From positions 62,001-126,000 of the forward strand of contig NW_026576274.1 in NCBI RefSeq assembly GCF_028641065.1: DNA of 64,000 nucleotides. Direction: 5' to 3'. Made by a program: the position numbers and the translations under genes. This DNA comes from Leucoraja erinacea (taxonomy: Eukaryota). This document shows, piece by piece, positions 20,914 to 21,970 of the stretch (its first letter is position 1; each line of letters opens with the position of its first letter). Below the pieces are notes generated by a model, which did no database searches, was not told where the DNA came from, and saw only the letters and a list, made by a program, of their open reading frames with translations.

Positions 20914-21010
20914 TTATCTCAGCCCACCTCTACGGCAGAAGTGGATGTACCCGACGTACTGCGGCGGTTTCTCCCAAGCATACACTTCCTGGTCATTGAA
21001 TATCACCCAC
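20914..21010 (-). pseudogene. Orphan terminal exon of USP5/USP13-like deubiquitinase (copy 1, open frame)
   Basis: tctctccctcacag|G TGG translates as WVIFNDQEVYAWEKPPQYVGYIHFCRRGGLR*, versus the recalled USP5 C-terminus WVIYNDQKVCASEKPPKDLGYIYFYQRVAS*. Confidence 0.8.
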
Positions 21011-21970
21011 CTGTGAGGGAGAGATGGACAGTGAGGGGGAGGGGAGAGGGGACGAAGGCAAAGAGAGAACTTTGTTACGGGTAGAGAGGGGAAGGATGGC
21101 GATGAGGGGTGAGAAGGAGGGTAGATATGGAAGTGGTGCGACAGGGAACGACGAAACGGGACGGTGTGATGGGTAGAAATGGAGAGCGGGGAGGTAAATC
21201 TGGCGCTGTGATGGAAAGGTGGGCAGGTGGACGGGAAAGAAATAATTCTAGAAGACTGGATAGAAGTCAGGAGAATGGGATTAAGAAGCCGGGTGAGTGT
21301 CAGTGTGCGTCTGTGTGTGAAGAAAGGGATAGAGGAGTGGAGCGAATAAGAGCCGGAGGATGTGGAGCGAAAGGGAAAAAGGAGTGTCACAGTCATTGAT
21401 CCACGCATCATGAAAGCTGGCCATTTGTCACAACTTTCTCACGCCGACCGAGATGCCCCATTTGCGCTATATTCCCATATTCCTGAAAACCTTCCCCATA
21501 TATGTAATTGTTCAAATAGCGTTCAAAAGATGTAGTAGGAGGGTGAGCTGCTGAAGTGGGAAGAGAGGGGAAGAGTAGCGGAGGGGACTGTAGGGAAACA
21601 GTTACGGAGCGCGGAGAATAGATTTGGAGCAGTGGAAGGGAGCGCCGGAGGTAGTGAGCGATAGGACTGGGACACAGGCGAGAGAGAGGGTCACTGGAGT
21701 GGGGTTAGTGGGCCGAGTGAAAGTAGGAATATTGGGAGAGCGATGGACGGGTGACATTGGTAGAGAGCGGCGCAGGAGCGGGTGGATCGGGATGGATGTC
21801 TGGCAATGGAAAGGGCAGAAATGGGGAAAAAAAGGGTGGGAGCAATGGGAAGAGAGTTCCGAATGGAGTGGGGGAATGAGGGCTGTTGTTGTGGGGAAAG
21901 AAGCAGGGGCGTAGCGGAGAGAGGATCGAAGCCGTGGGGTAGAATAGACCAGTGTGATGGGGAAAGGTGG
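21011..21970. repeat. Purine-rich low-complexity tract (pyrimidine-rich intron upstream of the USP5-like exon on -)
   Basis: Strong G/A skew on +, beginning directly at the splice acceptor. Confidence 0.65.

What the first reader, a model, noticed from the sequence alone, without database searches (positions are those of the whole stretch)
20914..21970. Orphan USP5/USP13 last exon lies tail-to-tail with GPCR gene 1
Seen: on the minus strand, an intact polypyrimidine/cag acceptor is followed by an open WVIFNDQEVYAWEKPPQYVGYIHFCRR frame. This matches the recalled C-terminus of isopeptidase T (USP5), and no upstream exons are recognisable. It explains the adjoining purine-rich tract as intron. 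Inference: the GPCR amplification unit was captured next to a usp5/usp13 locus. The exon could also act as a terminal exon for antisense transcripts.
Basis: partly seen in the sequence, partly recalled or inferred. Interest (0 to 1): 0.7.

Follow-up and report, generated by a model that had tools for sequence, protein, structure and literature searches.

The report
USP5 gene-tail fossil beside skate receptors
This is a decayed copy of the last exon of the housekeeping gene usp5, found facing about 20 of 130 sampled copies of a skate receptor gene family; it was likely duplicated along with the receptor and likely kept partly because it holds a predicted end-of-transcript signal for the receptor.

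Summary
Minus-strand 21010–20914 is a USP5-type last exon with a CAG acceptor (PDB USP5, E=2.3e-6). No other USP5 exon lies on the 130-kb contig, except a second, broken last-exon copy (43753–43660) behind GPCR 2. The donor is usp5, not usp13 (67/75 vs 57/75 nt). The remnant faces 20 of 130 sampled GPR139-like genes, always tail-to-tail, and four loci also keep the preceding exon. So it is a genomic co-duplication, like TNXA in the RCCX module. Six of seven comparable copies carry stops; this copy's open frame fits chance. About 25 nt past the old usp5 stop, AATAAA on the receptor strand is the best-kept hexamer (18 of 20 non-redundant copies; median 16%), which suggests the remnant holds the receptor's poly(A) signal. 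This copy has lost it (AATTAA). RNA reads gave no splice joint at 21010 and too little depth to map 3' ends. The live usp5 is almost absent from the assembly, so its neighbours could not be checked. Real and not found in my searches, but a known kind of event.

The parts
18327..18393 (+). GPR139-like GPCR 1, coding exon 1
   Evidence: tBLASTn of relatives' N-termini; splices in frame to exon 2, 325 aa
19236..20146 (+). GPR139-like GPCR 1, coding exon 2 to stop
   Evidence: Pfam 7tm_1 E=5.8e-19; relatives annotated 'probable GPR139' in sharks, rays and skates
20130..20135 (+). AATAAA inside the GPCR coding end (Asn-Lys codons); possible alternative poly(A) signal
   Evidence: present in 79 of 130 loci
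20795..20800 (-). AATAAA on the usp5 strand, likely the old usp5 poly(A) signal
   Evidence: kept in 11 of 20 non-redundant copies, not clearly above background
20885..20895 (+). TGTA followed by AATTAA: degenerate form of the receptor-strand AATAAA that paralogs keep
   Evidence: AATAAA in 21 of 24 aligned copies, not in this one
20914..21010 (-). Decayed copy of the usp5 last coding exon, open frame of 32 codons
   Evidence: 53/75 nt identical to skate usp5, 47/75 to usp13
21011..21970 (-). Pyrimidine-rich tract with CAG acceptor at 21013-21011; likely derived from the last usp5 intron; preceding exon absent here
   Evidence: same composition upstream of the exon in 11 other copies examined, including three that keep both exons
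39198..41128 (+). GPR139-like GPCR 2 (exon 1 39198-39264, exon 2 from about 40170)
43636..43641 (+). Intact receptor-strand AATAAA in the second remnant
   Evidence: first AATAAA after the coding end of GPCR 2
43660..43753 (-). Second usp5 last-exon copy: two internal stops, acceptor mutated to CAT
43754..45000 (-). Second pyrimidine-rich intron-like tract
   Evidence: 76% purine on +; GC skew peak

Best explanation
The stretch is a decayed copy of the 3' end of usp5 that faces a GPR139-like receptor gene; it was likely duplicated as DNA together with an ancestral receptor that lay tail-to-tail with usp5, is likely non-coding now, and likely persisted in part because it holds the receptor's predicted poly(A) signal. 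Shown: USP5 origin, repetition at about 20 loci in one orientation, retention of intron and splice sites, coding decay, and unusual retention of AATAAA on the receptor strand. Inferred: a single early capture, overlap of the two 3' ends, and use of the hexamer. In this window's copy the hexamer has decayed, so here the exon is probably a plain relic.
For: USP5 match; all 7 indel-free copies closer to skate usp5 than usp13, majority 67/75 vs 57/75 nt; real usp5 mRNA ends with its stop at the same position. Remnant behind 10 of 130 GPCR loci by a protein HMM made only from database USP13-cluster proteins, 20 of 130 by DNA HMM at E<1e-6, any part in 25 of 130; all hits on the strand facing the GPCR, 0 hits in reversed controls. 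Preceding exon kept at C41, C1362, C815 and C1080, so not a retrocopy. Stops in 6 of 7 indel-free copies. Receptor-strand AATAAA: 21 of 24 aligned copies, 18 of 20 non-redundant (best of 430 hexamers, median 16%), 14 of 15 copies found at protein level; binomial p about 2e-9 at the mean A/T column rate and 5e-4 at the top-quartile rate, uncorrected. It is the first AATAAA after the coding end in 16 of the 17 sampled loci that have it. Remnant-bearing genes are scattered over the older branches of one subfamily.
Against: No RNA evidence for the 3' end: no read covered 20278-20947 in four runs. The window copy itself lacks AATAAA, and L147 and L148 also lack it. L106, nearly identical in coding sequence to remnant-bearing L137, has lost the hexamer region, and 110 of 130 loci show no exon remnant within the DNA fetched, so it is dispensable. 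An AATAAA inside the coding end (79 of 130) and an earlier ATTAAA (7 of 19 remnant loci) are alternative signals. Copies are related, so the binomial values overstate independence. pN/pS is below 1 (pooled dN/dS 0.51; this copy 0.32 on 8 and 6 changes). One remnant (C299) has no facing GPCR. Tree backbones are weakly supported. The live usp5 neighbourhood is not assembled.
Confidence: 0.6

Rival explanations
1. Pure hitch-hiker: the usp5 tail was co-duplicated and is decaying neutrally everywhere; the well-kept hexamer reflects slow change of A/T, CpG-free sequence and relatedness of copies.
For: Most loci lack the remnant; the window copy and L106 lost the hexamer while keeping receptor coding sequence; in-CDS AATAAA could serve instead.
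Against: Retention 18 of 20 against about 25% expected from other A/T columns; insertions and deletions in L097, L138, L152, C460 and L052 remove the far half of the exon but spare the hexamer.
Confidence: 0.25
2. The remnant serves antisense transcripts, as terminal exon or terminator, using the acceptor and the old usp5 poly(A) signal, or the TATTTAT motif acts on the usp5 strand.
For: Acceptor and old AATAAA are both intact in the window copy; old AATAAA in 11 of 20 copies. In stranded run X13 about four fifths of the depth on the receptor coding region was antisense, and a few reads lay on the usp5 strand in bin 20948-21081.
Against: No joints listed, and no loose end at 21010 among the 21 of 38 shown. 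Only 5 of 347 laid reads were at least 99% alike, so most come from paralogs or cross-mapping. Old AATAAA retention is not above the top-quartile background (p=0.5). Acceptor lost in several copies.
Confidence: 0.1
3. This exon is the true end of a usp5 paralog whose upstream exons lie beyond the contig end or are misassembled.
For: Open frame and intact acceptor; the usp5 gene body is missing from the assembly; pN/pS 0.32.
Against: The expressed usp5 last exon is elsewhere (C456:493-571; 308 of 345 laid reads at least 99% alike). No upstream exon in the 47 kb to the contig end. Only 15 of 25 residues match skate USP5. With 8 stops over 7 copies, one stop-free copy is expected by chance (Poisson P(0) about 0.3, my arithmetic).
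Confidence: 0.03

Closest known systems
TNXA in the human RCCX module (RP-C4-CYP21-TNX)
   Same: A truncated 3' fragment of an opposite-strand neighbour is carried in each duplicated segment; its last exon lies in the 3' UTR of the duplicated gene and it is a pseudogene (PMC8362596 and PMC6769589, passages read).
   Different: RCCX is a tandem module of a few copies at one locus; here at least 24 copies lie on many contigs, the fragment is 1-2 exons, far more decayed, and the kept element is a hexamer on the partner's strand.
USP5 (isopeptidase T), human 3ihp; skate protein P0243
   Same: Last-exon peptide, acceptor position and stop position; majority translation of 7 copies matches human USP5 at 25 of 26 residues.
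   Different: No zf-UBP, UBA or catalytic Cys box; 32 of about 830 residues; not a deubiquitinase.
USP13 (intact on C14:41.847-41.899 Mb)
   Same: Paralogous last exon, 47/75 nt identical to the window copy.
   Different: Every copy is closer to usp5; preceding-exon remnants have Q and C where USP13 has E and S.
Elasmobranch 'probable GPR139' receptor expansion
   Same: The partner gene is a member.
   Different: The usp5 remnant marks older branches of a skate-only clade in my tree; shark and stingray proteins fall outside it, and their flanks could not be read.

Membership tests
USP5/USP13 deubiquitinase (functional gene) | C-terminal USP5/13 sequence motif | tested here: met
   PDB USP5 E=2.3e-6
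USP5/USP13 deubiquitinase (functional gene) | zf-UBP, catalytic UCH and UBA domains in upstream exons | tested here: not met
   None on the 130-kb contig
USP5/USP13 deubiquitinase (functional gene) | Spliced transcript using the acceptor | tested here: inconclusive
   No joints, very low depth
usp5-derived rather than usp13-derived fragment | Closer to usp5 at DNA level and diagnostic residues | tested here: met
   7 of 7 copies; majority 67/75 vs 57/75
Co-duplicated gene fragment (TNXA/RCCX type) | Recurs with the duplicated gene in fixed orientation | tested here: met
   20 of 130 loci, all facing the GPCR; exception C299 has no facing GPCR
Co-duplicated gene fragment (TNXA/RCCX type) | Intron and splice sites retained (DNA-level duplication) | tested here: met
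   Preceding exon plus intron at C41, C1362, C815; preceding exon at C1080
Co-duplicated gene fragment (TNXA/RCCX type) | Parent locus shows partner gene beside the intact donor gene | tested here: inconclusive
   Assembly departs from the mRNA inside the usp5 last exon and the continuation is not in the assembly; no GPCR on C456
Processed pseudogene (retrocopy) | Introns removed, exons joined | tested here: not met
   Acceptor and intron-like tract present
Canonical poly(A) site of the receptor | AATAAA on the transcribed strand downstream of the stop | tested here: met
   21 of 24 copies; not met in the window's first copy (AATTAA)
Canonical poly(A) site of the receptor | Transcripts cleaved 10-30 nt downstream | tested here: inconclusive
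   No reads over the 3' region of the one locus tested

The most novel reading that the evidence does not exclude
The 3' end of a housekeeping deubiquitinase gene was co-opted as a portable transcript-termination cassette for a large, unstudied receptor subfamily. It fixes the subfamily's birthplace at the usp5 locus, preserves an ancestral USP5 C-terminus that living skate usp5 has lost, and was later replaced in a younger clade by a LINE-derived signal.
Probability: 0.3. Interest if true: 0.6.

Novelty: new variant of a known kind. Interest (0 to 1): 0.42.

Why it matters
It gives a traceable marker for where and how a very large, uncharacterised shark-and-ray receptor family spread: by DNA duplication from a site next to usp5, a gene that this assembly almost lacks. 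If the poly(A) role holds, it is a clean natural experiment in which about two dozen copies show which bases of a captured 3' end selection keeps. It also warns annotators that 'USP5-like' fragments near these receptors are relics.

Tried and rejected
USP13 as donor: rejected. Upstream exons in the window or the rest of the contig: none. Retrocopy: rejected, introns kept. Aligning the purine tract with other copies' introns: 10 of 11 scores within composition-matched nulls, one marginal (47 vs null maximum 45). C-terminal tails of 120 database GPCR proteins as a proxy for shark flanks: only 3 tails, no match. Sequencing-run search: no RNA holder listed. Search for the true usp5 continuation in the assembly: 0 matches. 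Pfam on the lectin-like frame of C456: nothing. Literature: searches GPR139+cartilaginous+expansion, USP5+elasmobranch, GPR139+shark+gene family, skate/GPCR/GPR139-like, USP5+GPR139 and two on convergent or tail-to-tail duplication (listings and abstract starts only) showed no description of this arrangement; PMC11979771 main text has no GPR139, GPR142 or USP5. Supplements were not read and subscription papers are not covered.

Full report
Observation. On the minus strand a pyrimidine tract ends in CAG at 21013-21011, followed by a 32-codon open frame that stops at 20916-20914. Its only PDB match up to E=10 is the C-terminus of human USP5 (3ihp_A 824-851, E=2.3e-6). It faces an intact two-exon, 325-aa rhodopsin-type receptor (18327-18393, 19236-20146) whose relatives are annotated 'probable GPR139' in sharks, rays and skates. 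The window is G000:C1093:62001-126000 of a 130,095-nt contig. No upstream USP5/13 exon lies on that contig. A second last-exon copy, with two stops and a CAT in place of the acceptor, lies at 43753-43660 behind GPCR 2. The genome is a skate's, judged from its USP13 and receptor relatives.

Donor gene. USP13 is intact on C14. A full-length USP5 from an unnamed record (P0243; 1446 bits to human USP5, 56% identical to skate USP13) matches the assembly only at C456:493-570 and at scattered remnants (one search used a stricter first look). RNA reads cover exactly that C456 exon (308 of 345 laid reads at least 99% alike) and run on into sequence that encodes P0243's last residues and stop; that continuation is not in the assembly. 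So C456 holds part of the live usp5 last exon and the rest of the gene is unassembled. All 7 indel-free remnants are closer to usp5 than to usp13; their majority is 67/75 versus 57/75 nt. The majority translation matches human USP5 at 25 of 26 residues but skate USP5 at 22 of 26. This suggests an old capture, or a lost usp5 paralog as donor.

Co-occurrence. A search with the receptor's C-terminal 117 aa gave 1147 candidates, of which 150 were scored. I examined up to 5 kb downstream of 130 of the 150; 122 had at least 4 kb. A protein HMM from 33 database last-exon peptides found the exon behind 10 of 130. A DNA HMM seeded on those found 20 of 130 at E<1e-6; a trimmed model found some part of the block in 25 of 130. 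All hits face the receptor, and reversed controls gave none. Direct searches added C35, C460, C815 and C1080, each facing a receptor, and C299, which has no facing receptor. C41, C1362, C815 and C1080 keep the preceding usp5 exon, so the duplication was of DNA. In 11 other copies examined the sequence upstream of the exon is pyrimidine-rich too, which supports the intron reading of 21011-21970 by position and composition; alignments were not clearly above nulls.

History. On a DNA tree of 131 receptors plus 2 outgroups, the 20 tips labelled remnant-bearing are scattered over the longer, older branches of one 123-member group (support 0.81). A group of 63 short-branched genes has none; FastTree gave no support value for that node. 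Of these 63, 45 carry an insertion within 200 nt of the stop that resembles the window's LINE-like frames (tBLASTx E=4e-6; the CR1 label is recalled), and 32 have AATAAA or ATTAAA at +245 to +300, against 3 of the other 67. On a protein tree of 114 rows (a subsample of skate loci, at most 14 per species), remnant-bearing genes interleave with Rhinoraja proteins, while stingray, manta and shark proteins fall outside (weak backbone). The capture thus likely predates the split of these skates; its presence in rays and sharks is untested.

Is the exon alive? Six of 7 indel-free copies have stops, 8 in all, so one open copy is expected by chance. The window frame matches skate USP5 at 15 of 25 residues and ends one codon later on a different stop. 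Against pure neutrality, pooled dN/dS is 0.51 and this copy's pN/pS 0.32 (8 and 6 changes), versus about 0.17 between live usp5 and usp13. The copies were found by protein likeness and third positions are CpG-rich, which likely lowers the ratio. In four RNA runs (1-25% of each read), 347 reads were laid on 18000-22000, only 5 at least 99% alike; no joint was listed and nothing covered 20278-20947. This is inconclusive.

What is kept. About 25 nt past the old usp5 stop the copies read TTTATT, which is AATAAA on the receptor strand, usually preceded there by TGTA or similar. It is present in 21 of 24 aligned copies. After dropping one poorly aligned copy (L148, which has lost it) and 3 near-duplicates, it is in 18 of 20, the best of 430 hexamers (median 16%). 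It is in 14 of 15 copies found at protein level. Other A/T columns predict about 25%. Among the 19 sampled loci with this region, 17 have the hexamer and in 16 it is the first AATAAA after the coding end; 7 of 19 have an earlier ATTAAA and 13 of 19 an AATAAA in the last codons. The antisense of the exon's end would supply a GU-rich downstream element (sequence shown; role inferred from established poly(A)-site anatomy). The old usp5-strand AATAAA is kept in 11 of 20, not clearly above background. The window copy reads AATTAA, so it is one of the few that lost the signal, and L106 lost the region while nearly identical to L137 in coding sequence.

Mechanism. An ancestral receptor gene likely lay tail-to-tail with usp5, its poly(A) signal inside the usp5 3' UTR. 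Duplications that reached past that signal carried the last one or two usp5 exons along. The usp5 coding sequence decayed, the hexamer was mostly kept, and many later copies lost the block, often after mobile-element insertions. Steps shown: identity, orientation, repetition, decay, hexamer retention. Steps inferred: single capture, overlap in the ancestor, use of the hexamer.

Comparison and novelty. The closest known case is TNXA in the human RCCX module, a truncated opposite-strand fragment whose last exon lies in the 3' UTR of the co-duplicated CYP21A1P (PMC8362596, PMC6769589; passages read). It works like that case but is not RCCX. My literature searches (listings only) showed no report of this arrangement. 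Two earlier AI notes on this genome concern the receptor family and another fragment carried with it; neither is support. Verdict: real, a new variant of a known kind, moderate interest.

Noticed in passing
window 19206-20143 (calibrated): In stranded run X13, about four fifths of the depth on the receptor coding region is antisense (summed bin depth 47.6 vs 12.5); reads are mostly 85-95% alike, so they come from paralogs. Run X10 is about even.
   Followed up: no
G000:C14:41829601-41829714 (L004, L025): An extra, near-identical copy of a usp13 5' coding exon with its downstream intron lies about 18 kb past the usp13 last exon.
   Followed up: partly
L168:493-571 (C456): The live usp5 last exon breaks off into poly-C and tandem repeats where the mRNA continues; the rest of usp5 is missing from the assembly, so this looks like an assembly fault.
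   Followed up: yes
L169, about C456:12280-12680, minus strand: Frames that resemble C-type lectin exons (recalled resemblance; Pfam gave nothing) lie on the same contig as the usp5 exon.
   Followed up: partly
window 60109-61922 and C1093:10511-11347: Two more divergent receptors (43-52% identical to GPCR 1); the window one is split over two frames near 61400-61495; neither has the usp5 remnant.
   Followed up: partly
63-member receptor group, e.g. L107: A shared LINE-like insertion about 90 nt after the stop in 45 of 63 genes brings an AATAAA or ATTAAA near +270 in 32 of 63.
   Followed up: partly
window 20300-20520: Short (about 60-nt) imperfect repeats in the receptor 3' flank, shared with paralogs.
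   Followed up: no
window 6748-8708: Frames resembling a DIRS-type retroelement (recalled resemblance; no Pfam hit for two of them), with a 72%-identical partner at C1093:25108-26567.
   Followed up: no
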